Part shown: in pieces, positions 26,247-50,301 of the stretch
Numbering within the stretch: position 1 is the first letter of the stretch
Layout of the letters: every line of letters starts with the position of its first letter
Sequence record: LC739534.1
Direction: 5' to 3' (one strand)
DNA from: Escherichia phage phiWec181
DNA: 64,000 bases
The notes under the pieces: model-generated
What the model saw: only the letters and a program-made list of their open reading frames with translations
Told to the model about the DNA's origin: nothing
Database searches by the model: none
Translations under genes and position numbers: made by a program

Positions 26247-27200
26247 ATGAAATACGAAGATTTTAAACAAATAGTTAAAGACGATGTGGTATTTGAGAAC
26301 TTACAGGAAGGTTGTGAAGTCTTAGGTTGGACAGAAAGAGATAGAAACTTTGCAAAAATATACGTAATACGTTGTAGTGTTTGTGCCAAAGACCCCGAAA
26401 TGTATGGAGATGGTCTTTTTACAGCTACAAAAGGGCGTTTAGTGAAAGGTCAGAAATGTTGCGCGTGCGCTGTATCCTTTAAATACAGTCAAAACCAACA
26501 CCTAATTCTGCTAAACAGGCATTTAAGTGTCGCAGGGTACAGCATAGTTTCTATTGGTGCTTGGGAGTGTTCTAAGACGAGAATAGAGTTTAGTTGTGAG
26601 AATGGACACACGAAGAACAGAACCCTGGCTCAAGCAAAGGTAGTAGAACCTTGTAAACAGTGTCTTGAAGAAGGCTGTACAAAACACAAACAAGATGAGG
26701 CAGAGGCAAAAATTATGAAGATAATAGAAGATAAATGTTTACCTTATGTATTTGTAGGGTGGGATACTTCTTACAAGAATGTAACTTCAAAATTCAACCT
26801 CATCTGTTCGGATCACGGTTTAAAAACAATAAGATACGCTTGTTTCCTAAATGGTCATTTTTGTAACGAGTGTTCTGGTAGAAATTGCCTAAGTCTTTAT
26901 TTATTAGGAGTTTATGATAGAGACTTGTTGGTAGGTTTAAAATTTGGCATCTCTCAGAGTCCAGTAAGAAGGGTTCAACAGTTAAATAAAAGGAACTTAT
27001 TTAAATGTAAAATACTACAGATTTGGACTTTTACATCACATGATCAAGCTGTACGGATGGAAACATTATTAAAGAACACATTGCGAACTGGAATATTTAC
27101 TAAAAGAGAGATGAAAGATGGTCATACAGAAACCACAGAAGTTACTAATTTAGAAACCATAATGGACCTTATGACCTCATCTCATGGATTGGTTAGTTAA
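26247..27200 (+). CDS. zinc-ribbon repeat protein with C-terminal T5orf172/GIY-YIG-like domain (317 aa)
   Basis: RBS AAGGAGGAAAC; Cys pairs; LKFGISQSPVRRVQQL...KDGHTETT, paralog of 21663-22679. Confidence 0.6.
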   Translation: MKYEDFKQIVKDDVVFENLQEGCEVLGWTERDRNFAKIYVIRCSVCAKDPEMYGDGLFTATKGRLVKGQKCCACAVSFKYSQNQHLILLNRHLSVAGYSIVSIGAWECSKTRIEFSCENGHTKNRTLAQAKVVEPCKQCLEEGCTKHKQDEAEAKIMKIIEDKCLPYVFVGWDTSYKNVTSKFNLICSDHGLKTIRYACFLNGHFCNECSGRNCLSLYLLGVYDRDLLVGLKFGISQSPVRRVQQLNKRNLFKCKILQIWTFTSHDQAVRMETLLKNTLRTGIFTKREMKDGHTETTEVTNLETIMDLMTSSHGLVS

Positions 27201-39571: not shown

Positions 39572-40174
39572 ATGCAACAACTGATCGTTAATATGCCTCG
39601 CACTGGTAATGAAGTTTTTGGCTCACCAGTAGACAAAGTTTGGAAAGCACACTTTCATCTGACCTTAGCCGAGGTAAGTAGTAAAGAGCTTATGCGAGCA
39701 GCAAAGATTATCGGTGCAAAATGCACAACTATCGATCTACATCGGGACACGCAATCACAGCGCGATCGTATGTTAACTAAGTATCAGGGTGGCATTGACA
39801 CAGGCTTAATGTTGGAATGTGTGGCAAAGTTAAAAGCGGCTGGCTTCAAAGTGTTACGCTATAAACTGGAACAAATGTTCAAGGACGTAGAACACGTAAT
39901 GCAGATGAACCTAAGCAAAGAACATTACGGAGAAGTACACATCAAGACTCCTGCCTCTATGCCGGAGATTGATACTGGCTTCTTCCGTATCTCTTCTAAT
40001 GCCGAAGAGGTGGATTATCGTTTCTATAATGCCCGTCTGTATACCGAAGAAGATAAGTTGCAGTTCAAGAAAGCTTATGATATGCTTCTGGCAAATGATG
40101 TTGAAATAAAGGGCTACCATGTAGAACAAGTGGTAGTAGACAGTAATCTTAACTTAGACGCATGGTGGGCTTAA
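39572..40174 (+). CDS. hypothetical protein (200 aa)
   Basis: RBS AAAGGAG. Confidence 0.65.
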   Translation: MQQLIVNMPRTGNEVFGSPVDKVWKAHFHLTLAEVSSKELMRAAKIIGAKCTTIDLHRDTQSQRDRMLTKYQGGIDTGLMLECVAKLKAAGFKVLRYKLEQMFKDVEHVMQMNLSKEHYGEVHIKTPASMPEIDTGFFRISSNAEEVDYRFYNARLYTEEDKLQFKKAYDMLLANDVEIKGYHVEQVVVDSNLNLDAWWA

Positions 40175-40175
40175 T

Positions 40176-40832
40176 ATGACTATTAAACATATCTCTTTTG
40201 ATGTATGGAACACACTGATCACAGCAAACCCCAATTACGCAGATATGCGAGCGTGGACTATCGCAAAATACGGGGATATTACGGAAGTAGAAGCAAGAGC
40301 AGCTTACAAGAAGATCAAAAAGGAACTGGACAATGCCGCACTTCAGGGAACAGCCGAGTGTGCAGCATATGCCTGGGAAAGACTTGGTTACGAACTTGGG
40401 ATAACACCTTTGAAGTCTGCAAAGCTTCGTTTCGAGTGTGAACAGTGGTTCCTTAAGTTTCCACCGCATGTGGCTGTGGATTTACCGATGCACTTGCTGT
40501 ATCTTTCGGGGCGTTATGATTTGAGCATCAAGAGTAATACCAACTTCATATCAGGAGATATCTTGCGACGTGCCTGTAAGTTTGAAGGTTGGAATTGTTT
40601 TGAGTTCACACATTTCTCGGATGAAGCTTTACTTTGTAAACCAGATCCGCGATTCTTTGCTCGCACGATCACTTATTCTCCAATCCCTCTGGTAGGGCAG
40701 GAAGTGTTGCACGTAGGTGATAGTGAAGAATATGATGGAAAATGTGTTGACGTAGGATTTAACTTCTGTCATATTAAGAACCCTAACGACTTGTTAGATA
40801 AACTTGCTAAAGGAGAACTTGTTAATGCGTAA
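40176..40832 (+). CDS. HAD-superfamily hydrolase-like protein (218 aa)
   Basis: N-terminal FDVWNTL resembles HAD motif I; C-terminal HVGDSEEYD resembles motif IV. Confidence 0.55.
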   Translation: MTIKHISFDVWNTLITANPNYADMRAWTIAKYGDITEVEARAAYKKIKKELDNAALQGTAECAAYAWERLGYELGITPLKSAKLRFECEQWFLKFPPHVAVDLPMHLLYLSGRYDLSIKSNTNFISGDILRRACKFEGWNCFEFTHFSDEALLCKPDPRFFARTITYSPIPLVGQEVLHVGDSEEYDGKCVDVGFNFCHIKNPNDLLDKLAKGELVNA

Positions 40833-41652
40833 TCAAACTCAAATCTTTGCTCACAAATTCGATAGTCTGGAAACTGCTCGCTTTGATATTCGTGACTATT
40901 CCAAACTGAAGTTTGGCAGCAACCAGGCGGCTCGCCGTATGGGGCGAACGCTGGCAGTCTCTTTCTATGACTTGGTAGTCAAGAATATGCCGGAAGAAGA
41001 ATTTGTGGTGATTCCTTCACCTTACAACCATGTGCATAACGCAGCAACCATGATGACCAATCAGTTCATCAACTTCCTGAACCTGTTGCTGTTGAATCAC
41101 AAGGGTAGCCGTGCAGTAGAATTGGATACGATCCACCGCAAGGTGAGTTACATTAACGATTATGGTTTCCTGGACAAAGCGAGCCGTAAGAAACTGATTG
41201 ATGGTGACACCTTCTATTGCAACAAAGATTTTTGGGGCAACAAGAAGCTGATCTTCATTGATGATGTGAACATCACGGGAACTCATGAAGACAAACTGAT
41301 TGAGATCCTGGATGAAAATAAAGTTACGAATGATGTTTACTTCCTGTATTTTGCGAAGTATACTGGTAATCAAGCAGACACAGAGGCTAAACTGAACTTC
41401 AACCATATTAACACGACAGATGCTTTTGTTAAGATGATCAATGAAGAATGTGATGCGCAGTGTCTTGTTCGTCCTATCAAGTATTTGATGGGACAAACAC
41501 CGGAAGAGTTTAAAATCATTCTTTCCCGTTTGCCGCACCAATACGTAGAAGCACTGTTCTTTGGGTGTCTTGGGGAAGGTTATGATAAGATCGAGAAGTA
41601 TTCTGAAAACTTCGTCTTCCTGAACCGTTACTTTAACCAGCATATCCTGTAA
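40825..41652 (+). CDS. phosphoribosyltransferase (PRTase)-fold protein (275 aa)
   Basis: ATG 40825 with AAGGAGAAC RBS; KKLIFIDDVNITGTHED matches PRPP-binding loop. Confidence 0.6.
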   Translation: MRNQTQIFAHKFDSLETARFDIRDYSKLKFGSNQAARRMGRTLAVSFYDLVVKNMPEEEFVVIPSPYNHVHNAATMMTNQFINFLNLLLLNHKGSRAVELDTIHRKVSYINDYGFLDKASRKKLIDGDTFYCNKDFWGNKKLIFIDDVNITGTHEDKLIEILDENKVTNDVYFLYFAKYTGNQADTEAKLNFNHINTTDAFVKMINEECDAQCLVRPIKYLMGQTPEEFKIILSRLPHQYVEALFFGCLGEGYDKIEKYSENFVFLNRYFNQHIL

Positions 41653-41661
41653 GGAGGGAAA

Positions 41662-42144
41662 ATGTTGAAGGTTGTTACTGGGAATCTGATCGATGCCGCC
41701 AAGAATGGGAAAGTGAACGTTATAGCCCACTGTTGTAACTGTATGTGTAATATGGGTGCAGGGATTGCTCCGCAAATTAAACGAGCATTTCCTTATGCAT
41801 ATGCAGCCGACTTGGATACAGCGGCAGGTGATCAAAGCAAACTGGGTTCTTTTAGTTTAGGGGTGCCGGAGGAAGTGTCTGACCCACTGGTTTATAACCT
41901 GTACGGACAGTACCGTTACGGGTATAACGGTAAAGGTCGTCAGTTGGACTATGATGCCCTGTACGATGCTCTTGAGGCTATGGCAAAGGATCTCCACAAA
42001 TGGGTGAACACATCTGCCAAACATAAGATTGGTCTACCTATGATCGGAGCAGGGTTGGCAGGAGGTAATTGGGCTATCATTGAAGTGATGATTGAAGAAA
42101 CTTTAGTAAAAACAGGTCACGATGTGACTATTTATAAACTTTAA
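41662..42144 (+). CDS. macrodomain protein (160 aa)
   Basis: N-terminus VVTGNLIDAAKNGKVNVIAHCCNCMCNMGAGIA matches macrodomain GDI...AIVNAAN...GGGV pattern. Confidence 0.7.
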   Translation: MLKVVTGNLIDAAKNGKVNVIAHCCNCMCNMGAGIAPQIKRAFPYAYAADLDTAAGDQSKLGSFSLGVPEEVSDPLVYNLYGQYRYGYNGKGRQLDYDALYDALEAMAKDLHKWVNTSAKHKIGLPMIGAGLAGGNWAIIEVMIEETLVKTGHDVTIYKL

Positions 42145-42157
42145 GAGGAGAAATAAT

Positions 42158-42379
42158 ATGGGTGTTGTTGCAGGTGTTCTGGCAGTAGTTATCGTGTTTG
42201 TTCTGGCTTTCCTGATTAGTATGATTCCAGCATGGCTTCTGCTGCTGGCTTATAACTACGTTGTTGAAATGATGGGTCACACAGATATCACTGTTCCTAT
42301 CACCTTCTGGACTGTGGTGTGTGTGGCATTTATCATGGCTGTACTACGTGGGATCTTTTCCTCAAGTTCTTCAAAATAA
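42158..42379 (+). CDS. small membrane protein (73 aa)
   Basis: Two hydrophobic helices; RBS AAGAGGAG. Confidence 0.6.
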   Translation: MGVVAGVLAVVIVFVLAFLISMIPAWLLLLAYNYVVEMMGHTDITVPITFWTVVCVAFIMAVLRGIFSSSSSK

Positions 42380-42460
42380 GTGTTGACAAGGTTTTAGAAT
42401 AGAGTAAGATGTATCACATGAGGCGGGGAGTGGTTCCCCGCAAAGAGAAAGGAGAAAATA

Positions 42461-43435
42461 ATGCAACTTGGTTTTCCAATCATTGATGTAGTGGTGTTGG
42501 TAGGTATTCTTGTTCTGTCGATCTGTGTTGACTTTTTTGGTCATCGTGAAAACAAGGAGATCTCTTTCAAATCCGCTGTGGCTTGGTCAGTATTCTGGAT
42601 TGGTGTGTCTTTAGCCTACTACGGTTTTGTATACTTCCAGCACGGCGCAGCTTTTGCAAACTTATTCTTGAGTGGATATGTGTTAGAGAAGTCGCTCTCG
42701 GTAGATAACTTGGTAGTGTTTGTAGCAGTGTTCTCCAGTTTCGGGATTAAGAGCACACACTTACAACACAAAATTCTACTCTGGGGTATTGCAGGTGCGA
42801 TTGTCTTCCGAGGTGTGTTTGTAGCAGCAGGGACTTATCTGCTAAGTTTGGGTTGGTTTGTTAATATCATCTTCGGTGCTGTTATCCTGTTCTGTGCTTT
42901 TAAAATGGTAATGGCTGGCGGTGATGATGAAGAAGTGGATTACTCTAAACATTGGGCGACACGCTTTGTACGTAAACTATTCCCAGTATCGGATCAGATG
43001 GATGGCGAGAAGTTCTTCACAATTAAGAATGGTGTTCGTGTAGCAACTCCGGCTCTGGTTTGTGTGTTCGTGATGGAAATGGTGGATGTGATCTTTGCAG
43101 TAGACTCGGTTCCGGCTGTAATTGCAGTGACACAAGAACCACTGCTTGTATTCTCTTCGATGCTCTGTGCAATCTTAGGCTTACGTGCTCTGTTCTTTGT
43201 TCTTAGTGTGGCCCTGAAGTATCTGGTTCACCTGGAAAAAGCAGTTATCGCAGTCCTGGTGTTTGTTGGTGTGAAACTGATGTATCACCCGTTTGCAGAA
43301 ACGCTGCACGCAAAAGTGAGCTTCCTGCCAGCGCATATTGACCCGACGATCAGCATGTATATCGTGCTTGGTACTCTGACCCTGGGCGTGATTGCAAGTT
43401 TCATCTTCCCTGAAAAAGAAGAAGCTACCGCTTAA
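42461..43435 (+). CDS. TerC-family integral membrane protein (324 aa)
   Basis: Multi-pass hydrophobic translation with YVLEKSLSVDNLVVF, which I recognise as the TerC signature. Confidence 0.7.
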   Translation: MQLGFPIIDVVVLVGILVLSICVDFFGHRENKEISFKSAVAWSVFWIGVSLAYYGFVYFQHGAAFANLFLSGYVLEKSLSVDNLVVFVAVFSSFGIKSTHLQHKILLWGIAGAIVFRGVFVAAGTYLLSLGWFVNIIFGAVILFCAFKMVMAGGDDEEVDYSKHWATRFVRKLFPVSDQMDGEKFFTIKNGVRVATPALVCVFVMEMVDVIFAVDSVPAVIAVTQEPLLVFSSMLCAILGLRALFFVLSVALKYLVHLEKAVIAVLVFVGVKLMYHPFAETLHAKVSFLPAHIDPTISMYIVLGTLTLGVIASFIFPEKEEATA

Positions 43436-43443
43436 TACCAATG

Positions 43444-43468
43444 AACCTCCTTCGGGAGGTTTCTTACT
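43444..43468 (+). terminator. candidate intrinsic terminator
   Basis: AACCTCC-TTCG-GGAGGTT hairpin followed by TCTT. Confidence 0.5.
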
Positions 43469-43483
43469 AACATAGGAGGAATT

Positions 43484-43834
43484 ATGTCTGTATATTTTGA
43501 CGATGTTCAGGAATATGTTTGGTGTCTTTCTGGCACAATCTCGGAAGTAGAAGCTGCGATTCAAGAGGTTTTTCCTTACGCTTATGTAGAAGTTAAACAG
43601 GCACCTCCTATGGATCTTCCCCCTAATGTGGAAGCTTGTTGTGGTTCCGGCGAGGGTACAGTCATCCCAGTTCTGCGTTACGAACTACAAGCAGCAAGTG
43701 CAAATGTCGATGATATTATTACAGAAATTAAGGCGTATGGTTTCTGGACCTCTCCTTACGCTAAATGGGATAACTCTGACACTTGGGATTTATTCTTCTG
43801 GGATAATGAGACAGATGACGAGGTATTTCTGTAA
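43484..43834 (+). CDS. hypothetical acidic protein (116 aa)
   Basis: RBS AGGAGG. Confidence 0.6.
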   Translation: MSVYFDDVQEYVWCLSGTISEVEAAIQEVFPYAYVEVKQAPPMDLPPNVEACCGSGEGTVIPVLRYELQAASANVDDIITEIKAYGFWTSPYAKWDNSDTWDLFFWDNETDDEVFL

Positions 43835-44076
43835 TGAAAGTTGTTTGGGTTGTGTTTGAAAATATTTGTTTTGCAATAGGTTTGTTCGTCATACTTTTTG
43901 TGTTGACAAACGTGATCAATGGTAGTAAAGTATCCCTATACAAAGACGGGGAGCAGATTTACTGCTTCTCTGGAGATTTCAAACACACCTGTGTTAATAT
44001 GCAGAAAGAAGAAACTCCACACCAGAAGTCAAGAGAAGATTTTGATTGGTGGTCACTACTTAATAACTTAAGATGA
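43834..44076 (+). CDS. membrane-anchored small protein (80 aa)
   Basis: N-terminal hydrophobic helix. Confidence 0.5.
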   Translation: MKVVWVVFENICFAIGLFVILFVLTNVINGSKVSLYKDGEQIYCFSGDFKHTCVNMQKEETPHQKSREDFDWWSLLNNLR

Positions 44077-44085
44077 GGAGAAAAT

Positions 44086-44955
44086 ATGAAAAATATTCAG
44101 CCATTACCTGTAGTTGGGGATTTGTATTTCTTATCTGGTACGGGTTATTCCCCAGAAGCATTAGAAGTTAACAAGAACGTCTTCCGAGTGAAAGAAATAA
44201 GAGAAGAATGTAATGAAATTGTTTTCGAAGGTATTACTAATGGAGTTCTTCAGTATGCAGAGATGCGTAGCTGCTTCCAGCAACCTTTCCGCCCGTTGGC
44301 AGACGAGTATAAGATTGCGGTAAATATTGATGATCTTAAAAAAGAACCAGGGTTCGAAGCGTTCTCTACTTTTATGGAAGATACGTATGTGGATGTAAAG
44401 AGATCTAACCTTTTCGCGGGGGATAATTTCCCTCACTTTGTGTCAGAGAAAAGTGATGGTTTTTCCGACTACGTGGATGCTGTAAACTATGATGTTTCTG
44501 AATTGACAGGAGAGCAGGATTATCTTCTGCTGTCTCCTAAAGATTTCATGCGCGTAATGTATGCCGTAGCCGAACAGAAAAAGAAGAAAGAAAAGCTTGT
44601 AGCCAAAAAAGTTAAAAAGGTTAAAGGTAAACGTGCCAAAGGTGTTCCAGAACGTAAGCGCACCGTAAATAAGGCGACAGTCTTCTTTACCAGCGGTGAG
44701 CAATATACGATCAAAGGTTTTAAAGAAGTGGGTTACACTGCTGGCGGAAACCTTCTGTTCTTCACAGTTGCAGAAGAAGGAGAAACTTTTATCCGTTTTT
44801 CCAATATGTGGGAAATGTCTGTAGAAGATATTAAAAGTGTTGTTGTTTTAGGTGTACATAAGAGTTTCATTATTAATCAAATCTCTGATTTCAGTGCACA
44901 CTTGACAGCACCAGATTTCGAAACTACCACAACAAGCTTTAACTTCAAGGTGTAA
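44086..44955 (+). CDS. hypothetical protein (289 aa) with Lys-rich segment
   Basis: RBS GAGGAG; internal KKKKEKLVAKKVKKVKGKRAK. Confidence 0.65.
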   Translation: MKNIQPLPVVGDLYFLSGTGYSPEALEVNKNVFRVKEIREECNEIVFEGITNGVLQYAEMRSCFQQPFRPLADEYKIAVNIDDLKKEPGFEAFSTFMEDTYVDVKRSNLFAGDNFPHFVSEKSDGFSDYVDAVNYDVSELTGEQDYLLLSPKDFMRVMYAVAEQKKKKEKLVAKKVKKVKGKRAKGVPERKRTVNKATVFFTSGEQYTIKGFKEVGYTAGGNLLFFTVAEEGETFIRFSNMWEMSVEDIKSVVVLGVHKSFIINQISDFSAHLTAPDFETTTTSFNFKV

Positions 44956-44958
44956 TGC

Positions 44959-45549
44959 ATGAATACCGAGAGAGATTTAAAACTCTTGTGGTGGGAAGTG
45001 ATGCAGGAGATCAAGGAGGATTTCCCTGTTTACTACAACATGCTACGTGAAGCTGGATATACGGCTTGCGTTAGGAACAAAGTGAATAACTCTTTCGGTT
45101 GGTGCAACTACCGAGAAAAGATTGTTGTTGTGAATTGGCACTTGCATAAAAACTCCACAAGGGATATGATAGTGGACACAATGAAGCATGAGATTGCTCA
45201 TGCGATCGACGGTTGTATGGGTAAGTTCAGTCGTCATGGACCACACTGGCAAAAGCTGGCAGCAGAGTTGGGAGCCAATCCTAAAGCTACTTCCAAAGAA
45301 CCGTTAAACCATGAGTACAAATATGTTCTTGTTTTGGTGGACAGATTTGCCACAAGATGTGTTAGAGGGTATAATCGTAAACCTAACCGTATGACTCCAG
45401 GGAAACAACCACATATTTGGTTGAAGAGTGATAAAGAGGGGACAGAAGGAAAAATATGGTTGTATAAATGGGAAGATTGGGTTAAAGTAGCTAAAGAATA
45501 TGGTGTTTCACCTTACACAAGAGAAATAGAAGAGGAGAATGAAGAATGA
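44959..45549 (+). CDS. SprT-like zinc metalloprotease-motif protein (196 aa)
   Basis: HEIAHAI (HExxH) preceded by conserved Cys/Trp region. Confidence 0.5.
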   Translation: MNTERDLKLLWWEVMQEIKEDFPVYYNMLREAGYTACVRNKVNNSFGWCNYREKIVVVNWHLHKNSTRDMIVDTMKHEIAHAIDGCMGKFSRHGPHWQKLAAELGANPKATSKEPLNHEYKYVLVLVDRFATRCVRGYNRKPNRMTPGKQPHIWLKSDKEGTEGKIWLYKWEDWVKVAKEYGVSPYTREIEEENEE

Positions 45550-46658
45550 CAAGTCCATTTTTGAAAGCGGCAACTGGTGGTCAAAAGAAATCTGAAACGA
45601 GTGTACTGACTGCTACTACAGATGCAAGCAAGTCCGTGTTCGCTCCGAGTGTCCTGGATGCAAGTCCAGTGTATGCTCCAGCAGCGCCAAAAGCTGTGCC
45701 TACCTTGCCAACAATGTCTCGTAAAGAGATTGAAGAAGTGGGTGCAGAAGCAGGTTTAACTCTCCGCACGCTGAATGCCGAAGTGTTAAAGCACCAACGT
45801 AGCAATCAAGGCGATGAAATGAGCCAACGCCTTACCGCGCTGATTAAACAAGCCAAACAGCTTGATCCTGCTTCTATCAAGCAGAGCAAAGGTGTAGGCA
45901 AACTTATCAAGAAACTGATGGGTATGAAGGAAGATCTGTTCGGGGAATTCGATAATGTGAACAACCGTATCGAAGAACTCGTTAAGAATCTTCAGATGGA
46001 TATTCGTAAAGAAGAAGATTCTCTGGTGTACCTGGAGAAGCTGCACCAGGCGATCGGACAGTACGCCGCAAGCCTGAATCGTGATATGGAATTACTCACA
46101 GCAGCTTATGAGCAAGAACTGGCTAACTTTGAAGCTACGCCAGAAGATGACGTAGAAGCCCGTCAACGCGTCCGTGACACGCTTGATCTTCTGGAGATAC
46201 GTATTGCTGACTTGAAGGCATTACGCTTGCTGTGCGTGCAAATGGGGCCGCGTGTATTGGGTATGCAGAAAGTATCTGCCAGCCTCATGCGTTCTGCTCG
46301 TAATATTGTGAACAATGTGATTCCTGCTTACTCGGCAAACTTCTCGATGTATATTGAAAGTCTGCGCCAGAAGAAAGCAGCAGAAACACAGAACAACGTT
46401 CTGGACGAGTTCAACCTGGCAATCAAACTGGGTAGCGATCTTGCCACACAGAACCAGATCGAAGCAGCAGCACTGGCTAACCGCCAAGTGTTGGATATCG
46501 AAACTCTGCGTCACGATCAGGAGAACTTGGTTAAGATGTTGGAAGAAACTAACCGCATCAATACGGAAGCCCGTGCTGCCCGTGTTGATTACATCAATGA
46601 AGTTCAATCTCTCGAAGATGGGATGGTTGACGCTGTTAAGAAGGGGTTGGGTAAATGA
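45546..46658 (+). CDS. coiled-coil protein (370 aa), possibly TelA-like
   Basis: Long helical, heptad-rich translation; TelA guess rests on size and Ter neighbourhood only. Confidence 0.6.
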   Translation: MTSPFLKAATGGQKKSETSVLTATTDASKSVFAPSVLDASPVYAPAAPKAVPTLPTMSRKEIEEVGAEAGLTLRTLNAEVLKHQRSNQGDEMSQRLTALIKQAKQLDPASIKQSKGVGKLIKKLMGMKEDLFGEFDNVNNRIEELVKNLQMDIRKEEDSLVYLEKLHQAIGQYAASLNRDMELLTAAYEQELANFEATPEDDVEARQRVRDTLDLLEIRIADLKALRLLCVQMGPRVLGMQKVSASLMRSARNIVNNVIPAYSANFSMYIESLRQKKAAETQNNVLDEFNLAIKLGSDLATQNQIEAAALANRQVLDIETLRHDQENLVKMLEETNRINTEARAARVDYINEVQSLEDGMVDAVKKGLGK

Positions 46659-46861
46659 GAATCCGTGTATACATGCTTGACGAACAAGCTGGAGAAATAG
46701 GTGTTCGTTATGATGAAGAGAAACGCTTTGCCCCAATGACCCAGCTACAAACTCCAGATATTTTTGCAGCTTGTCGTGACGGATATATCTATGAAGGTTG
46801 TCGCAACTTTGGCAGATTTAAAGTTATTTCTGATGTGGAATTTAACGAGGAGGAAGAATGA
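46655..46861 (+). CDS. hypothetical protein (68 aa)
   Basis: ATGA overlap. Confidence 0.5.
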   Translation: MRIRVYMLDEQAGEIGVRYDEEKRFAPMTQLQTPDIFAACRDGYIYEGCRNFGRFKVISDVEFNEEEE

Positions 46862-47028
46862 AAACATTGCGTGTGAACATCGAAACTACCTGGCGAGATT
46901 TCGAGGTTGTTGATATTGAGATTGAAGACGATATGTCTCAAGAAGATATCGAAGATCTTGCAAAAGAAACATTTCAGGACTATTGTAATTACGGGTTCCA
47001 TATTTTAGGGGAGGAAGAAGATGTTTAA
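46858..47028 (+). CDS. hypothetical acidic protein (56 aa)
   Basis: Below ORF-track cutoff; ATG overlaps previous stop; RBS GAGGAGG. Confidence 0.4.
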   Translation: MKTLRVNIETTWRDFEVVDIEIEDDMSQEDIEDLAKETFQDYCNYGFHILGEEEDV

Positions 47029-47419
47029 ACACACAAACGTAAACTTGAAATTAACAGTAACAGATCCGACTCTTTTCATCAATCTTACAAGCGGGGAAGT
47101 TTATGAAGTTATCACAGACGAGGATGGTTCTTGCTTCCTTAAAGGTTATTATCTCTGTGAATCTGATGAGTTGGTATCTATTATCACCTTGGGAGAATAC
47201 GAAGAACCAGGCTTCCGTGTGGAGGTTGTTAAGAATCCCGATATTATCCAGTTGACTCGCCAAGAACTGATCACAATCATGGAAGACGCTTTTATTGATG
47301 GATGGAAGACTCAAAACTATGATTGGAGTGGCCCAGAAGACTTCCTGCGTCTTCATAAAGAGTATGACGATTCCAGCGAAACTACTATTGCCATTGATAG
47401 TATTAAGGCTGGTGTGTAA
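47021..47419 (+). CDS. hypothetical protein (132 aa)
   Basis: RBS GGAGGAAGAAG. Confidence 0.6.
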   Translation: MFKHTNVNLKLTVTDPTLFINLTSGEVYEVITDEDGSCFLKGYYLCESDELVSIITLGEYEEPGFRVEVVKNPDIIQLTRQELITIMEDAFIDGWKTQNYDWSGPEDFLRLHKEYDDSSETTIAIDSIKAGV

Positions 47420-47488
47420 TGAAAAGTGTTGACAACAATCTCCATAAGATGGATAATACCTCCATCGAAAAAACGGGAGGAGATAAGA

Positions 47489-47761
47489 ATGTTTGATTTT
47501 AAAATAAAGGATTCAAAACCCCAAGATGTAGCAGTTCGTTTCGAAGAGTTGGGGATTGGTGAAACTTTCATGTATTATTCAGCATATGAAGAAAATGGTT
47601 TGGATACATTTGCAAACTTAGTATTCCTTAAAAGCGGCGGCGCGACTGCTGTTTGTTTGAATAGTTCATCAAGAGGGAGTGTCCATACCGTATCCCCAGA
47701 TGTGCCGATGGTTGCAGTTCGTTTAGTAGTTACTGATATTACACTTACAGAGGAGAAATAA
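47489..47761 (+). CDS. hypothetical protein (90 aa), paralog of 48783-49064
   Basis: ATG 47489 with GGGAGGAG RBS; both paralogs sit immediately upstream of a TerD-type gene. Confidence 0.55.
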   Translation: MFDFKIKDSKPQDVAVRFEELGIGETFMYYSAYEENGLDTFANLVFLKSGGATAVCLNSSSRGSVHTVSPDVPMVAVRLVVTDITLTEEK

Positions 47762-47762
47762 T

Positions 47763-48563
47763 ATGTCCAATAAAATTAGCCTGAAGAAACGCCAAGACAC
47801 CCTGACCATTTCACTGAAGAAAAAGAAAATTGTCAACGAAGATCAAAAGATCGTTCTGCGTGTTGCAAGCGCACTGGATATCTCCGGCAGCATGTCCAGC
47901 CTGTATCGTAACGGTACTGTAAGTGAGTTTGTTGGTAAGCTGCTTCCGTTTGGTATGCTGTTCGATGATAACGCGCAGATCGATATGTGGGCTTTCAACA
48001 ATAGCTCTCGTGAAATCACTCCAGCAACTGCTGATGTGTATGATGATTACGTTGGTAAATGCATTAATGGTCGTGTAACAGTCCAGGGTGGCACAAGCTA
48101 TGCACCTGTTATGCAGGATATTTACGATTCCTACTTCGGTAGCACCACTAAATATGAAACTGTAGAAACCCCTGTAACCAAAGAAGTTCCTAAGAAAGGT
48201 TTCTTCAACCGTTTACTGGGTAAAACCGAAACTGTAGAAGCTATTGTAGAAAAAACTGTAGCCGTTGCTGTGCCTGGTGTAGACGTTACTCCGGCAGTTG
48301 TGTTCTTCCAGACAGATGGAGAGAACGATGATCCGAGCCGTGTACTCTCCGTACTGGAAAAGAACAAGGGTAAACCTATTTACTGGTTCATGGTGGGTGT
48401 TGGTAGTGCTCGTTTCTCTTTCCTGAAAGATTTGGCTGAAGCTTACGACAACGTAGCATTCATTGGTCTGAACGATCTTTCCTTGACAGACGAGCAGCTT
48501 TACGATAAACTCTTGTCTGAAGAGTTCGGTGAGTGGGTTGAAAAGGTTGGTGCTAAGAAATGA
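47763..48563 (+). CDS. vWA-domain protein with TerD-like N-terminal leader (266 aa)
   Basis: MIDAS-like DISGSM; GGTSYAPV; VVFFQTDGEND; N-terminus KISLKK...ISLKKK like the TerD gene. Confidence 0.65.
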   Translation: MSNKISLKKRQDTLTISLKKKKIVNEDQKIVLRVASALDISGSMSSLYRNGTVSEFVGKLLPFGMLFDDNAQIDMWAFNNSSREITPATADVYDDYVGKCINGRVTVQGGTSYAPVMQDIYDSYFGSTTKYETVETPVTKEVPKKGFFNRLLGKTETVEAIVEKTVAVAVPGVDVTPAVVFFQTDGENDDPSRVLSVLEKNKGKPIYWFMVGVGSARFSFLKDLAEAYDNVAFIGLNDLSLTDEQLYDKLLSEEFGEWVEKVGAKK

Positions 48564-48802
48564 TCGACACGCTGATCTCTCAAACGGTGTTGCAAGTGAT
48601 GCGTGAGAGAGAAGCTTTCATCATGAAGGGTCTTAAAGATTATTTTGGGACTCTTTCTTTGGAAGAACTCAAACTACGCGTTGAGATCCATGCGTATCCT
48701 TCTTATGAAGAATGGATTGACAAAGCAAATAAAGCTGTTATAATGCGTATCAACAAACCAGAAATCACGACAGGAGGACAAGATGTTAAATTTCGCCATT
48801 AA
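48560..48802 (+). CDS. hypothetical protein (80 aa)
   Basis: ATGA overlap. Confidence 0.5.
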   Translation: MIDTLISQTVLQVMREREAFIMKGLKDYFGTLSLEELKLRVEIHAYPSYEEWIDKANKAVIMRINKPEITTGGQDVKFRH

Positions 48803-49064
48803 GAAAGATAGCAAACCAAAGATTCAGACTTGTCGCATTGCAAATCTTACACATGGTGATTTGTTTGTTCTGAAAAGTGCCTACGACGAAGACGGTCTTG
48901 ATCCAGAAGCAGTCGTCGTTTATATGGTGTTGCGGCGAGATGAAGACACCAAGCACCCATACAATGCGGTAGAGATGAATTACAATGCAATGTTGTGCTC
49001 AATACACTATACGGCAGAGTTGGTGCAGGTAGAGTTAACAGTTAACGAAATTAAACTTAAATAA
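48783..49064 (+). CDS. hypothetical protein (93 aa), paralog of 47489-47761
   Basis: RBS CAGGAGGA. Confidence 0.55.
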   Translation: MLNFAIKKDSKPKIQTCRIANLTHGDLFVLKSAYDEDGLDPEAVVVYMVLRRDEDTKHPYNAVEMNYNAMLCSIHYTAELVQVELTVNEIKLK

Positions 49065-49079
49065 TAGAGGAGACACATA

Positions 49080-49682
49080 ATGAGCGATAAAATTTCCCTG
49101 AAAAAAGGTTCCACCGAGAAGATTTCCCTGAAGAAAGTTGCTCCGGCACTGAAAGAACTGCGTCTGGAGTTCTCCTGGAAATCAAACTCTAAACTGGATC
49201 TGGATGTAAGCGCACTTGTATGCCGACACAACGCCTCTGGCAACCCTGAAATGCTGTCTGCACGTCATCTGGTTTGTTATGCTAACAAGTTTGATCCAGA
49301 ACGTTCTGTATTCGCAGGTGATGATGTTCGTGACGGTACTGGTCAAATGGAACAAATCGATGTAACCTTGGCTAAGATCTCCGATAAAGCCGAAGAGATT
49401 GCTTTTGTCCTAACTATTGATGATGAAACGGGTCAGAAACGTCTGGGTCACGCTACTGAAGGTATGCTGAAGATCTTTGATGCCGAGCGTAACGTTGAGA
49501 TCCTGGACTTCGACTTCTTGGCTCCTGAAGTGGCTGGTAATACCATCTGCCACGTAGCTTCCCTGGTTCGTGAAGACGGTGAATGGAAACTGAAAGCTTA
49601 CGGTGTTGGTAAAGCAGGTATGGATATCTGTGATGTGGTTATGGCCTTCGGTGGTCAGAAAGAATGGTACGATTGCCCGTAA
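49080..49682 (+). CDS. TerD-domain protein (200 aa)
   Basis: Translation aligns by eye to E. coli TerD: ISLKKG, DLDVSAL, GDDVRDGTG, IAFVLTIDD, REDGEWKLKAYGVG. Confidence 0.8.
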   Translation: MSDKISLKKGSTEKISLKKVAPALKELRLEFSWKSNSKLDLDVSALVCRHNASGNPEMLSARHLVCYANKFDPERSVFAGDDVRDGTGQMEQIDVTLAKISDKAEEIAFVLTIDDETGQKRLGHATEGMLKIFDAERNVEILDFDFLAPEVAGNTICHVASLVREDGEWKLKAYGVGKAGMDICDVVMAFGGQKEWYDCP

Positions 49683-49779
49683 GATTTAACTGAAATGTTG
49701 TTGGGGGAGAAATCCCCCATTGCAAAAACGCCTCTCATGTGTTATACTGGTAGTTCATTCACCCAAAAGGAGGCAAAAT

Positions 49780-50301
49780 TTGCTGATAAAAAACTTTGTA
49801 ACAGTTGCGTTACTATCCTTAACTGCTTTTACATTTACACCTGTCACGGCAACCGCCGAAGCTGCAAACGTAAAGACTGCTAAAGTAGTTCACAAATGTG
49901 CAAAGCAAGATACTAAAGAAAATCTCTTGGCTTGTGCAATTTACGCTGAAAGTCGTAATCAGGGTAAACGTGGGATGTATGCTGTAGGTAATGTAGTATT
50001 GAACAGGAAAGGTGATGATTACTTCCCTGATAATATTAAAGATATTCTCTTCCAACGAGGACAATTCTCTTACAGGAAGAAGTTTAACGTTACCGAAGCA
50101 GAGCGATGGAAAGAAGCTAAAGCTATCGCAAAACGACTTATATACCTGGATACACACTTCCCTACACTTAGAGAAGCCCAGGACATGACAAAAGGTGCGA
50201 CATTTTTTAAGAAAGTAAAAACCCGTGCACACTGGACAAAAGATATGGTCTTAGTGTATCGTTATAAAGAACATCAGTTCTACCTACCGACAAGGAGCTA
50301 A
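49780..50301 (+). CDS. SleB/CwlJ-like cell-wall hydrolase with signal peptide (~173 aa)
   Basis: LLACAIYAESRNQG...AVGNVVLNR motif; TTG start 49780 after AAAGGAGG gives a signal peptide, whereas ATG 49720 has no RBS. Confidence 0.65.
   Translation: MLIKNFVTVALLSLTAFTFTPVTATAEAANVKTAKVVHKCAKQDTKENLLACAIYAESRNQGKRGMYAVGNVVLNRKGDDYFPDNIKDILFQRGQFSYRKKFNVTEAERWKEAKAIAKRLIYLDTHFPTLREAQDMTKGATFFKKVKTRAHWTKDMVLVYRYKEHQFYLPTRS

What the first reader, a model, noticed from the sequence alone, without database searches (positions are those of the whole stretch)
42461..49682. Phage-encoded Ter-like module: TerC-like membrane protein, vWA protein and TerD-domain protein
Within 7 kb on one strand sit a TerC-family membrane protein (LSVDN signature), a long coiled-coil protein of TelA-like size, a vWA protein with MIDAS-like DISGSM whose N-terminus mimics TerD, and a clear TerD-domain protein. 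Two paralogous ~90 aa genes each sit immediately upstream of a TerD-type gene. Ter systems are chromosomal or plasmid stress and phage-resistance loci; a compact version in a phage replication region suggests the phage manipulates host membrane or ion state, or mimics or counters a host Ter-type defence.
Basis: partly seen in the sequence, partly recalled or inferred. Interest (0 to 1): 0.8.

Follow-up and report, generated by a model that had tools for sequence, protein, structure and literature searches.

The report
Phage-borne reduced Ter stress-response gene set
A virulent E. coli phage (phiWec186, phAPEC8/phi92 group) really does carry a conserved, intact set of Ter membrane/metal stress genes, but this has already been noted in these and other large phages and nobody has tested what the genes do.

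Summary
The window is Escherichia phage phiWec186 (Phapecoctavirus). Pfam places 42461-43435 in TerC (1e-39), 45546-46658 in TelA (2e-34), 47763-48563 in vWA-TerF-like (3e-37) and 49080-49682 in TerD (2e-29). The two ~90 aa genes are true paralogs. The set is larger than reported: a HAD hydrolase and a PRTase_3 phosphoribosyltransferase, the predicted Ter-linked metabolite enzymes, lie just upstream (40176-41652). The same pair sits next to TerC/TerD/vWA in three unrelated uncultured phage contigs. Transport, MIDAS and PRPP-binding residues are intact. dN/dS against phAPEC8 is 0.03-0.10. The cluster occurs in about 130-145 phage records. The vWA N-terminus that resembles TerD is a family-wide motif, not phage mimicry. 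Phage Ter clusters are already published (phi92 annotation; Iyer et al. 2021; phiKp34; phiPsa374), so this is a known kind. The most likely role is an early-expressed inner-membrane, divalent-cation-dependent complex that protects envelope and ion state and excludes rival phages or pore-forming toxins. That role is inferred, not shown. A decoy against host Ter defence is unlikely. Interest is modest.

The parts
40176..40832 (+). HAD-superfamily hydrolase paired with the PRTase. The nucleophile Asp9 is kept, but the Asp+2 position is an invariant Trp.
   Evidence: Pfam Hydrolase 2e-4; NCBIfam HAD-IA subfamilies; PDB 2om6 at 1e-4. Invariant D9, W11, T13, S120, N121, K155, G181, D182 and D187 in 7 phage homologs. 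93% aa identity to phAPEC8, dN/dS 0.10.
40825..41652 (+). PRTase_3 (ComF-like phosphoribosyltransferase), the Ter-associated PRTase family.
   Evidence: PF15610 at 6.7e-41. PRPP loop D146-D147-V-x-I-T-G-T invariant in 17 homologs. Adjacent to HAD in every locus examined. Contiguous with TerC/TerD/vWA in L007, L008 and L009.
41662..42144 (+). Macro-domain protein, DarG-like. It sits between the PRTase and TerC. Membership in the module is uncertain.
   Evidence: PF01661 at 8e-5; PADLOC DarG 3e-12; NCBIfam antitoxin_DarG 2e-11, below cutoff. Conserved at the same position in phi92 gp185, 49% identity. Absent next to Ter genes in L007-L009.
42158..42379 (+). 73 aa small hydrophobic (probably membrane) protein just upstream of the terC promoter. 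Function unknown.
   Evidence: ORF; no significant Pfam family; 93% identity to phAPEC8.
42383..42410 (+). Sigma-70-like promoter for terC (TTGACA-16-TAAGAT).
   Evidence: Identical in phAPEC8, where it is annotated as a host-dependent promoter. The -35 element and a TATAGT -10 are kept in phi92.
42423..42441 (+). GC-rich 7-bp hairpin in the terC 5' leader, with no U-tract.
   Evidence: MFE -14.3 kcal/mol, z -2.1. Stem kept in phi92 through changes on both arms. No Rfam family and no yybP-ykoY riboswitch.
42461..43435 (+). TerC/Alx-family inner-membrane divalent-metal transporter.
   Evidence: PF03741 at 1e-39; TIGR03718 at 1e-96, above cutoff. 37% identity to E. coli Alx. All five acidic residues needed for Mn2+ export are conserved: E76, D82, E206, D209, D215 (PMC10197570).
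43484..44955 (+). Three genes of unknown function (116 aa; 80 aa with an N-terminal hydrophobic segment; 289 aa with a Lys-rich linker). They evolve fast but keep their position.
   Evidence: PHROGs of unknown function only. 51%, 70% and 39% identity to phAPEC8. The 289 aa protein is 29% identical to phi92 gp179.
44959..45549 (+). SprT-like zinc metalloprotease (HEIAH motif). Its 3' end overlaps the telA start by 4 nt.
   Evidence: PF10263 at 2e-9. 93% identity to phAPEC8, dN/dS 0.05. phi92 gp180, the 196 aa protein in the same TerC-TelA interval, is unrelated.
45546..46658 (+). TelA-family coiled-coil protein.
   Evidence: PF05816 at 2.3e-34. 90% identity to phAPEC8, dN/dS 0.03. No solved relative by sequence.
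46655..47419 (+). Three small genes (68, 56 and 132 aa) of unknown function.
   Evidence: PHROGs of unknown function; conserved in phAPEC8.
47429..47457 (+). Sigma-70-like promoter (TTGACA-17-GATAAT) upstream of p90a. Specific to the phiWec186 lineage.
   Evidence: Not conserved in phAPEC8 or phi92, where an extra 187 aa gene occupies this place.
47489..47761 (+). p90a: small SH3-like beta-barrel protein, paralog 1.
47763..48563 (+). Stand-alone vWA-TerF-like protein with an intact MIDAS site and the conserved ISLxK leader.
   Evidence: PF10138 at 2.7e-37; invariant MIDAS residues; AlphaFold pLDDT 92.7; Foldseek matches to MIDAS vWA domains.
48560..48802 (+). 80 aa gene of unknown function. 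Its 3' part carries a perfect consensus extended -10 promoter at 48717-48744.
   Evidence: phrog_22387. Promoter scores 12/12 with TG. Both hexamers are conserved in phAPEC8.
48783..49064 (+). p90b: paralog 2 of the SH3-like protein. Two copies are found in Phapecoctavirus records and one in Justusliebigvirus.
   Evidence: two places per Phapecoctavirus record, one per Justusliebigvirus record.
49080..49682 (+). Single TerD-domain protein.
   Evidence: PF02342 at 1.8e-29. Matches PDB 3IBZ and 2KXT at E about 1e-14 over the full length. 91% identity to phAPEC8, 81% to phi92. dN/dS 0.05.

Best explanation
This is the Stephanstirmvirinae version of a reduced Ter system that recurs in large phages. 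It has six recognisable parts.

- A HAD-family hydrolase.
- A PRTase_3 enzyme. Together with the HAD, it is predicted to make a ribosylated base (nucleotide- or nucleoside-like) metabolite from PRPP.
- A TerC/Alx-type divalent-metal transporter in the inner membrane.
- A TelA coiled-coil protein.
- A MIDAS-bearing vWA-TerF-like protein.
- One TerD protein.

**Proposed mechanism (inferred).** Host RNA polymerase transcribes terC, and in Phapecoctavirus the p90b-terD pair, from sigma-70-type promoters early in infection. The proteins assemble a divalent-cation-dependent complex at the inner membrane. This complex changes metal and ion flux and stabilises the membrane barrier of the infected cell. 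The phage gains in two ways. Superinfecting phages are excluded. The cell is protected from pore-forming toxins and premature membrane failure. This parallels the phage-inhibition and colicin-resistance phenotypes of the plasmid ter operon.

**Shown here:** family membership, intact functional residues, purifying selection, conservation across two phage genera, and recurrent linkage of the six gene families in phages.

**Inferred:** complex formation, expression timing, the metabolite and the phenotype.

The confidence given (0.45) is for the functional reading. That the genes are an intact phage-borne Ter set is close to certain.
For: - **Family assignments:**
- **Functional residues kept:** the five Alx Mn2+-export residues; the MIDAS residues; the PRPP loop; the HAD nucleophile.
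- **Purifying selection:** dN/dS 0.03-0.10 against phAPEC8, with synonymous sites near saturation.
- **Conservation:** the cluster is present in about 130-145 phage records across Phapecoctavirus and Justusliebigvirus.
- **Recurrent linkage:** HAD+PRTase_3 is contiguous with TerC/TerD/vWA(/TelA), in three different gene orders, in unrelated uncultured phage contigs.
- **Promoters:** sigma-70-like promoters are conserved upstream of terC and of p90b-terD. The terC one is annotated as host-dependent in phAPEC8.
- **Published hypothesis:** Iyer et al. 2021 (PMC7824862) propose that phage Ter systems serve in competition with superinfecting phages. They describe the same division into PRTase/HAD, TerD, TerC and TelA/vWA parts.
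- **Plasmid phenotypes:** the R478 ter cluster confers phage inhibition and colicin resistance (Whelan 1995, seen in the reference list).
Against: - No experiment on any phage Ter gene was found.
- TerB and the extra TerD paralogs of the canonical operon are absent, so the plasmid phenotypes may not transfer.
- No PADLOC defence model matches the Ter proteins.
- The HAD+PRTase_3 pair also occurs without nearby Ter genes, so it may act independently.
- The TerD acidic Ca2+ loop is shortened and loses two Asp residues relative to the solved TerDs.
- The HAD lacks the Asp+2 general acid, so a simple phosphatase step is not assured.
- Promoter calls are consensus matches only.
Confidence: 0.45

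Rival explanations
1. Metal housekeeping only. The phage TerC/Alx exports Mn2+ or another divalent cation, or hands metal to exported proteins. It has been freed from the host's Mn2+/pH riboswitch control. TerD, vWA and TelA act as metal-binding accessories. The benefit is correct metallation of phage or host enzymes during infection, not exclusion of competitors.
For: - TIGR03718 match above cutoff, and all five Alx export residues conserved.
- No riboswitch in the leader, but a constitutive-looking promoter.
- TerC-family proteins export Mn2+ and metallate Sec-exported enzymes (PMC10197570, PMC10550928, PMC13274385; titles and abstracts).
- TerC occurs alone in several other phage groups: Proteus, Vibrio and Pectobacterium phages.
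- A SleB-like hydrolase with a hydrophobic N-terminus lies directly downstream.
Against: - It does not explain why TelA, vWA-TerF, TerD and the PRTase/HAD pair travel with TerC in several phage lineages.
- No phage metalloenzyme that depends on it has been identified.
Confidence: 0.2
2. The HAD+PRTase_3 pair is a nucleotide-metabolism unit (base salvage, or synthesis of a modified nucleotide for phage DNA or RNA). It lies beside the Ter genes only because both sit in the replication and nucleotide-metabolism region. On this reading the Ter set proper is just TerC, TelA, vWA and TerD.
For: - The pair occurs without adjacent Ter genes in Xanthomonas phage XaC1, Rhizobium phage RHph_TM30 and contig L010. 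There it sits near thymidine kinase, RNA ligase, a cytidyltransferase and a PurA-like enzyme.
- In the window it follows NrdD/NrdG.
Against: - In L009 the pair is inserted between TerC and TerD. In L007 and L008 it directly follows the vWA gene.
- It is adjacent to the Ter genes across the Stephanstirmvirinae records examined.
- PF15610 is the PRTase family that I recall was defined from bacterial Ter neighbourhoods (own knowledge of Anantharaman et al. 2012, which I could not read).
Confidence: 0.2
3. Decoy or counter-defence, one of the first reader's readings. The phage proteins mimic host Ter components and poison or titrate a host Ter-type defence complex.
For: - Bacterial ter loci inhibit some phages (Whelan 1995, cited).
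- The neighbouring genes look like counter-defence candidates: a DarG-like macro domain and an AbiEi-like protein.
Against: - A decoy would not need a full set of transporter, enzymes and intact metal sites held under strong purifying selection.
- Similarity to the bacterial Ter/Alx proteins compared is distant: 37% identity to E. coli Alx, and TerD matches solved bacterial TerDs only at E about 1e-14.
- Many carriers were isolated on K-12 MG1655, which to my knowledge has no ter operon.
- The TerD-like N-terminus of the vWA protein is a family-wide feature.
Confidence: 0.05
4. Host-benefit cargo. The genes confer tellurite or xenobiotic resistance on the infected or pseudolysogenic cell.
For: - Iyer et al. 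2021 mention this as an additional possibility for jumbo phages.
- Database annotations call the genes 'tellurite resistance'.
Against: - These are virulent myoviruses.
- TerB and TerE are absent.
- Warring et al. judge an equally incomplete phage set unlikely to give tellurium resistance.
Confidence: 0.03

Closest known systems
Ter cluster of Escherichia phages phi92 (gp172-gp187) and phAPEC8 (gp048-gp066), subfamily Stephanstirmvirinae
   Same: Same genes in the same order: HAD, PRTase_3, macro, small membrane protein, TerC, TelA, p90, vWA, TerD, then the SleB-like hydrolase. Against phAPEC8, the recognised family genes are 72-93% identical and the p90 paralogs 42-51%; against phi92, 65-93% where measured. 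phi92 already annotates gp172 as a stress protein, gp178 as a toxic anion resistance protein and gp182 as a tellurium resistance protein.
   Different: - phiWec186 lacks the 187 aa gene found upstream of p90a in phAPEC8 and phi92, and has a promoter-like site there instead.
- phi92 has one p90 copy, and the protein in its TerC-TelA interval that was compared (gp180) is not SprT-like.
- The phiWec186 TerC is of the phi92 type (93% identity) rather than the phAPEC8 type (72%).
Phage Ter operons described by Iyer, Anantharaman, Krishnan, Burroughs and Aravind 2021 (Acinetobacter phage ME3; Caulobacter jumbo phages), plus Klebsiella phage phiKp34 and Pseudomonas phage phiPsa374
   Same: The same TerC, TerD, vWA-TerF and TelA quartet, with PRTase and HAD in the fuller versions. 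The same open question about function.
   Different: Different phage lineages and gene orders, and only distant sequence similarity: TelA 22-28% and TerD 24-32% identity to non-Stephanstirmvirinae phage records such as the Caulobacter, Brevundimonas, jumbo and phiPsa phages. The p90 SH3-like genes and orf289 were detected only in Stephanstirmvirinae, and SprT only in the Phapecoctavirus members examined.
Bacterial/plasmid terZABCDEF operon (IncHI2 R478, E. coli O157 islands, Klebsiella)
   Same: TerC, a TerD-fold protein and a TerF-type vWA domain. In the bacterial loci these are associated with PRTase/HAD biosynthetic genes (own knowledge of Anantharaman et al. 2012; summary).
   Different: - No TerB, and a single TerD instead of the TerZ/A/D/E/F paralogs.
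- The vWA protein is stand-alone rather than fused to TerD.
- No ATP-grasp enzyme and no TerW/X/Y.
- TelA is present, whereas in bacteria it is usually a separate telAB/klaABC locus (own knowledge).
- TerD matches the solved bacterial TerDs only at E about 1e-14.
E. coli Alx, riboswitch-controlled Mn2+ exporter of the TerC family
   Same: 37% identity over 279 residues. All five acidic residues needed for export are conserved. Both belong to NCBIfam subfamily TIGR03718.
   Different: No yybP-ykoY riboswitch. The phage gene has a short leader with a hairpin, behind a sigma-70-like promoter.

Membership tests
Ter system in the broad comparative-genomics sense (TerD/TerC/TelA/vWA-TerF plus PRTase/HAD) | TerD-domain protein | tested here: met
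   PF02342 at 1.8e-29. Full-length match to PDB 3IBZ and 2KXT at E about 1e-14.
Ter system in the broad comparative-genomics sense (TerD/TerC/TelA/vWA-TerF plus PRTase/HAD) | TerC-family membrane protein | tested here: met
   PF03741 at 1.1e-39. TIGR03718 scores 323.8 bits against a cutoff of 246.4.
Ter system in the broad comparative-genomics sense (TerD/TerC/TelA/vWA-TerF plus PRTase/HAD) | TelA protein | tested here: met
   PF05816 at 2.3e-34, covering 13-326 of 332 profile positions.
Ter system in the broad comparative-genomics sense (TerD/TerC/TelA/vWA-TerF plus PRTase/HAD) | TerF-type vWA domain with a MIDAS site | tested here: met
   PF10138 at 2.7e-37. D39, S41, S43, T111 and D185 invariant. 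vWA fold confirmed.
Ter system in the broad comparative-genomics sense (TerD/TerC/TelA/vWA-TerF plus PRTase/HAD) | Linked PRTase_3 and HAD enzymes (predicted metabolite synthesis) | tested here: met
   PF15610 at 6.7e-41, with an adjacent HAD. The same linkage appears in L007, L008 and L009. The PRPP loop is invariant.
Ter system in the broad comparative-genomics sense (TerD/TerC/TelA/vWA-TerF plus PRTase/HAD) | TerB protein | tested here: not met
   No TerB (PF05099) hit in any of the 20 ORFs between 39332 and 50301 scanned at E <= 0.1. TerB is not universal in Ter neighbourhoods, so this marks the set as reduced rather than excluding it.
Ter system in the broad comparative-genomics sense (TerD/TerC/TelA/vWA-TerF plus PRTase/HAD) | Membrane-associated multi-protein complex | not testable with these tools
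   Needs co-purification, localisation or complex modelling.
terZABCDEF tellurite-resistance operon (R478 / O157 type) | Multiple TerD paralogs (TerZ, A, D, E, F) and TerB | tested here: not met
   Only one TerD-domain ORF, one stand-alone vWA protein and no TerB.
terZABCDEF tellurite-resistance operon (R478 / O157 type) | Confers tellurite resistance, phage inhibition and colicin resistance | not testable with these tools
   These are phenotypes. Warring et al. consider an equally partial phage set unlikely to give tellurium resistance.
TerC/Alx Mn2+ exporter subfamily (TIGR03718) | Score above the curated cutoff and the acidic transmembrane residues E86, D92, E213, D216, D222 (Alx numbering) | tested here: met
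   The alignment gives E76, D82, E206, D209 and D215. Residue requirement taken from PMC10197570.
TerC/Alx Mn2+ exporter subfamily (TIGR03718) | yybP-ykoY Mn2+ riboswitch in the leader (typical of bacterial members) | tested here: not met
   No Rfam match at gathering threshold in the window, and nothing relevant at E <= 10 in 42100-42600.
TerC/Alx Mn2+ exporter subfamily (TIGR03718) | Mn2+ export activity | not testable with these tools
   Needs complementation of an mntP/alx mutant or metal measurements.
Catalogued anti-phage defence systems (PADLOC, e.g. TerY-P) | Match to a PADLOC model for the Ter proteins | tested here: not met
   TerC, TelA, vWA and TerD have no PADLOC hit at E <= 0.01. 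Only the neighbouring macro (DarG) and 200 aa (AbiEi) proteins hit.

The most novel reading that the evidence does not exclude
The six-family phage set (HAD with Asp+2 replaced by Trp, PRTase_3, TerC, TelA, vWA-TerF, TerD) is a self-contained, minimal Ter machine. In it, a still-unknown ribosylated small molecule made by the two enzymes controls a Ca2+/Mn2+-dependent membrane complex. That complex blocks DNA entry by rival phages or neutralises pore-forming abortive-infection toxins. Because it works in a virulent phage that plates on E. coli K-12, it would be the simplest genetic system in which to solve how Ter systems work. That question has been open since the 1990s.
Probability: 0.15. Interest if true: 0.7.

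Novelty: already known. Interest (0 to 1): 0.28.

Why it matters
How Ter systems act is still unknown, even though they are widespread in pathogens and are linked to tellurite, colicin and phage resistance. A compact, strongly conserved version in easily handled virulent E. coli phages (phi92, phAPEC8, phiWec186) offers a small knock-out-friendly model. It carries one TerD, one TerC, one TelA, one vWA and the two predicted metabolite enzymes. For this particular window the result is mainly better annotation. The GenBank record names only TerC, while twelve neighbouring genes are labelled hypothetical. Several of them can now be named: TelA, TerD, vWA-TerF-like, SprT-like, HAD, PRTase_3 and macro.

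Tried and rejected
1. **Riboswitch or other RNA in the terC leader.** Rfam gave no hits. Only a simple hairpin is present.
3. **'TerD mimicry' by the vWA N-terminus.** Rejected, because the motif is conserved in bacterial homologs and is modelled as a helix.
4. **PADLOC.** No hits for the Ter proteins.
5. **PDB sequence searches.** Nothing for TelA, PRTase_3 or vWA.
6. **Key background paper.** Anantharaman et al. 2012 (PMC4104200) is not held. Statements about it rest on my memory and on its summary in Iyer et al. 2021.
7. **Python access to loci.** Loci L002-L004 and L008-L010 were not available to the Python sandbox. As a result, dN/dS against phi92 and profile searches of those loci were not done.
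8. **TerD structure prediction.** Not run. The allowed input would have been a single sequence, and the Pfam and PDB sequence matches already settle the fold.

Full report
**Identity of the window.** Megablast of 42461-49682 gives 100% identity to Escherichia phage phiWec186 (LC739535.1, 15941-23162) and to phiWec179. It gives about 95% identity to phiWec188/190, and about 80% over roughly half of the region to phAPEC8-like phages. The record is a 154.5 kb virulent myovirus of Stephanstirmvirinae, genus Phapecoctavirus. In GenBank only TerC is named. The vWA gene carries the gene label 'ycbR', and the other twelve genes under the finding are 'hypothetical'.

| Coordinates | Assignment | Evidence |
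|---|---|---|
| 42461-43435 | TerC | PF03741, 1.1e-39; TIGR03718 above its curated cutoff |
| 45546-46658 | TelA | PF05816, 2.3e-34, nearly full-length |
| 47763-48563 | vWA-TerF-like | PF10138, 2.7e-37 |
| 49080-49682 | TerD | PF02342, 1.8e-29; end-to-end alignment to 3IBZ and 2KXT |

The two small genes (47489-47761, using the annotated ATG, and 48783-49064) are paralogs. They share 34% identity at E 2e-10 and both fall in phrog_11278. The N-terminal 20 residues of the vWA protein and of TerD share 14 identities. The DNA similarity extends upstream through the ribosome-binding site into the 3' end of each p90 gene.

**The module is larger than reported.** The region upstream of TerC holds the following genes.

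- A HAD-family hydrolase (40176-40832).
- A PRTase_3 'ComF-like' phosphoribosyltransferase (annotated 40825-41652; PF15610, 6.7e-41). To my knowledge this is the PRTase family defined from Ter neighbourhoods.
- A macro-domain protein and a 73 aa membrane protein.
- A SprT-like metalloprotease (44959-45549), whose end overlaps the telA start.

To test whether HAD+PRTase_3 belongs with the Ter genes, I looked up contigs that encode PRTase_3 homologs of 45-50% identity.

- In three unrelated uncultured phage contigs the pair is contiguous with Ter genes, in three different orders:
  - L007: TerC-x-x-TerD-x-vWA-x-x-HAD-PRTase.
  - L008: TerC-x-TerD-x-vWA-HAD-PRTase.
  - L009: TelA-vWA-...-TerC-HAD-PRTase-TerD.
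- The pair stands alone in contig L010, in Xanthomonas phage XaC1 and in Rhizobium phage RHph_TM30.

Linkage is therefore frequent but not obligatory.

**Are the genes functional?** The evidence says yes.

- **TerC.** Against E. coli K-12 Alx (37% identity), the phage TerC keeps all five acidic transmembrane residues shown to be required for Mn2+ export. These are Alx E86, D92, E213, D216 and D222, corresponding to phage E76, D82, E206, D209 and D215 (PMC10197570).
- **vWA.** The MIDAS residues are invariant in 58 homologs. The AlphaFold model is confident (pLDDT 92.7) and matches MIDAS vWA domains.
- **PRTase_3.** The PRPP loop DDVxITGT is invariant.
- **HAD.** The nucleophile Asp and motifs II-IV are kept, but the Asp+2 general acid is an invariant Trp in all seven phage homologs. 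Its chemistry may therefore not be that of a standard phosphatase.
- **TerD.** The DLD motif is retained. The acidic loop reads GDDVRDGTGQME where solved TerDs have GDNxTGEGxGDDE, so it is two residues shorter and has lost two Asp. I cannot tell whether Ca2+ binding survives.
- **Selection.** Nei-Gojobori dN/dS against phAPEC8 is 0.03-0.10 for HAD, PRTase_3, TerC, SprT, TelA and TerD, and 0.31 for p90a.
- **Conservation.** Amino-acid identity to phAPEC8 is 91% for TerD, 90% for TelA, 73% for vWA and 72% for TerC, against 87% for NrdD.
- **Distribution.** tblastn finds the genes in about 125-145 Stephanstirmvirinae records, including phi92.

**The small paralogs and the 'TerD-like' N-terminus.**

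- p90 is restricted to this phage subfamily and a few metagenomic relatives. An exhaustive profile search of 1.8 billion representatives gave 15 hits at E <= 0.001, 11 of them short 54-93 aa proteins and 4 giant repeat proteins.
- Phapecoctavirus records have two copies and Justusliebigvirus records have one.
- The ISLKK...ISLKK leader of the vWA protein is not a phage invention. Bacterial stand-alone vWA-TerF-like proteins from Paenibacillus, Paraclostridium and cyanobacteria carry it. So does the TerD-vWA linker of fused proteins.
- L7, K9 and L18 of the leader are at least 90% conserved. AlphaFold models residues 7-20 as a helix.

**Expression signals.**

- A sigma-70-like promoter lies in the 82 nt gap before terC (42383-42410). 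It is identical in phAPEC8, where it is annotated as host-dependent, and recognisable in phi92.
- It is followed by a 7 bp GC hairpin whose stem is kept in phi92 through changes on both arms.
- There is no yybP-ykoY riboswitch.
- A perfect extended -10 consensus promoter (48717-48744) precedes p90b-terD and is conserved in phAPEC8.
- A third promoter-like site (47429-47457) precedes p90a-vWA only in the phiWec186 lineage. There a 187 aa gene present in phAPEC8 and phi92 is missing.

These are consensus matches, not proof of activity.

**What is already known.**

- The phi92 record (genome paper of 2012, per my recollection) annotates gp172 as a stress protein, gp178 as a toxic anion resistance protein and gp182 as a tellurium resistance protein.
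- Iyer et al. 2021 describe Ter systems in jumbo 'and certain other related smaller tailed phages'. They include a full set with PRTase and HAD in Acinetobacter phage ME3, and they propose a role in competition with superinfecting phages.
- The same quartet is reported in Klebsiella phage phiKp34 and Pseudomonas phage phiPsa374. The latter paper judges tellurium resistance unlikely and the function unknown.
- I found no experimental work on any phage Ter gene.

**Mechanism.** I commit to the following, at moderate confidence. The cluster is an early-expressed, reduced Ter system that builds a divalent-cation-dependent complex at the inner membrane. Its predicted parts are a TerC transporter, a TelA coiled-coil protein, a vWA MIDAS protein and a TerD. 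It is possibly tuned by a ribosylated small molecule from PRTase_3 and HAD. The complex would stabilise the ion and barrier state of the infected cell, and so exclude rival phages and pore-forming toxins. Family membership, intact sites, selection and recurrent linkage are shown here. Everything downstream of that is inference from the plasmid ter phenotypes and from the comparative-genomics model.

The rivals are pure metal homeostasis by TerC, an independent nucleotide-metabolism role for PRTase/HAD, a decoy against host Ter, and host-benefit tellurite resistance. The decoy reading is weak for three reasons. A complete, catalytically intact, strongly constrained set is kept. Similarity to the bacterial Ter/Alx proteins compared is distant (37% identity to Alx). 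Many of these phages were isolated on K-12 MG1655, which to my knowledge has no ter operon.

**Verdict.** The kind of feature is already known. The value of this analysis lies in improved annotation and in pointing to a tractable minimal model for the unsolved Ter mechanism. Interest is about 0.28.

Noticed in passing
window 41662-42144 (+): The 160 aa macro-domain protein resembles the macro domain of DarG, the DNA ADP-ribosyl glycohydrolase antitoxin (PADLOC DarG 3e-12; NCBIfam 2e-11, far below cutoff). It is conserved as the C-terminal part of phi92 gp185 (49% identity). It may be a phage counter to DarT-type DNA ADP-ribosylation.
   Followed up: partly
window 39572-40174 (+): This 200 aa protein matches two PADLOC AbiEi (antitoxin) models over nearly their full length (7e-13 and 3e-10). 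It has no significant Pfam family. It may be a phage-encoded AbiEi-like counter to AbiE abortive infection. It is 74% identical in phAPEC8.
   Followed up: no
window 42461-44955 (+): The region is a mosaic. The phiWec186 TerC is 93% identical to the phi92 (Justusliebigvirus) type and to some Phapecoctavirus records, but only 72% to phAPEC8. TerD and TelA show the opposite pattern (91% and 90% to phAPEC8; 81% and 78% to phi92). The three genes after TerC are very divergent (39-70%). This suggests allele exchange around terC between genera.
   Followed up: partly
window 40176-40832 (+) and loci L003, L004, L007-L010: In every PRTase_3-linked HAD examined, the Asp+2 general acid/base of HAD motif I is an invariant Trp (D-x-W-x-T). 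This defines a distinct HAD clade whose chemistry may differ from that of ordinary phosphatases.
   Followed up: partly
window 42423-42441 (+): A conserved GC-rich hairpin sits in the short terC leader (-14.3 kcal/mol). Its stem is kept in phi92 through changes on both arms. It has no U-tract and no Rfam match. It may stabilise the mRNA or serve as a processing site.
   Followed up: partly
window 47419-47489 (+): The phiWec186 lineage lacks the 187 aa gene that phAPEC8 (gp061) and phi92 (gp175) carry upstream of p90a. It has an 11/12 sigma-70-like promoter at the junction instead.
   Followed up: partly
window 49720-50301 (+): A SleB-like cell-wall hydrolase (PF07486, 5e-17) with a hydrophobic N-terminal segment lies directly after terD. 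It is annotated as the endolysin in phAPEC8. An exported endolysin next to a TerC-family protein is notable, because TerC proteins assist Sec-exported enzymes in Bacillus.
   Followed up: no
window 47763-48563 (+), residues 127-171: The AlphaFold model of the vWA protein shows a long two-stranded beta-hairpin arm inserted in the vWA fold. In the homologs read this region differs in length.
   Followed up: no
window 26247-27200 (+): A 317 aa protein carries CapR homology domains (PF21817, 1.5e-20, two stretches). It lies at the start of the plus-strand replication block.
   Followed up: no
phage records: Several records named after other hosts are close relatives of E. coli Stephanstirmvirinae in this region. 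Examples are Campylobacter phages A150, A110a and B15 (TerD 81% identical, the same as phi92-type phages), Pseudomonas phage PsgM04F (94% nt identity) and Acinetobacter phage vB_AbaM_ABPW7 (TerD 91% identical). The host labels may be wrong, or the phages may have come from contaminating enterobacteria.
   Followed up: no
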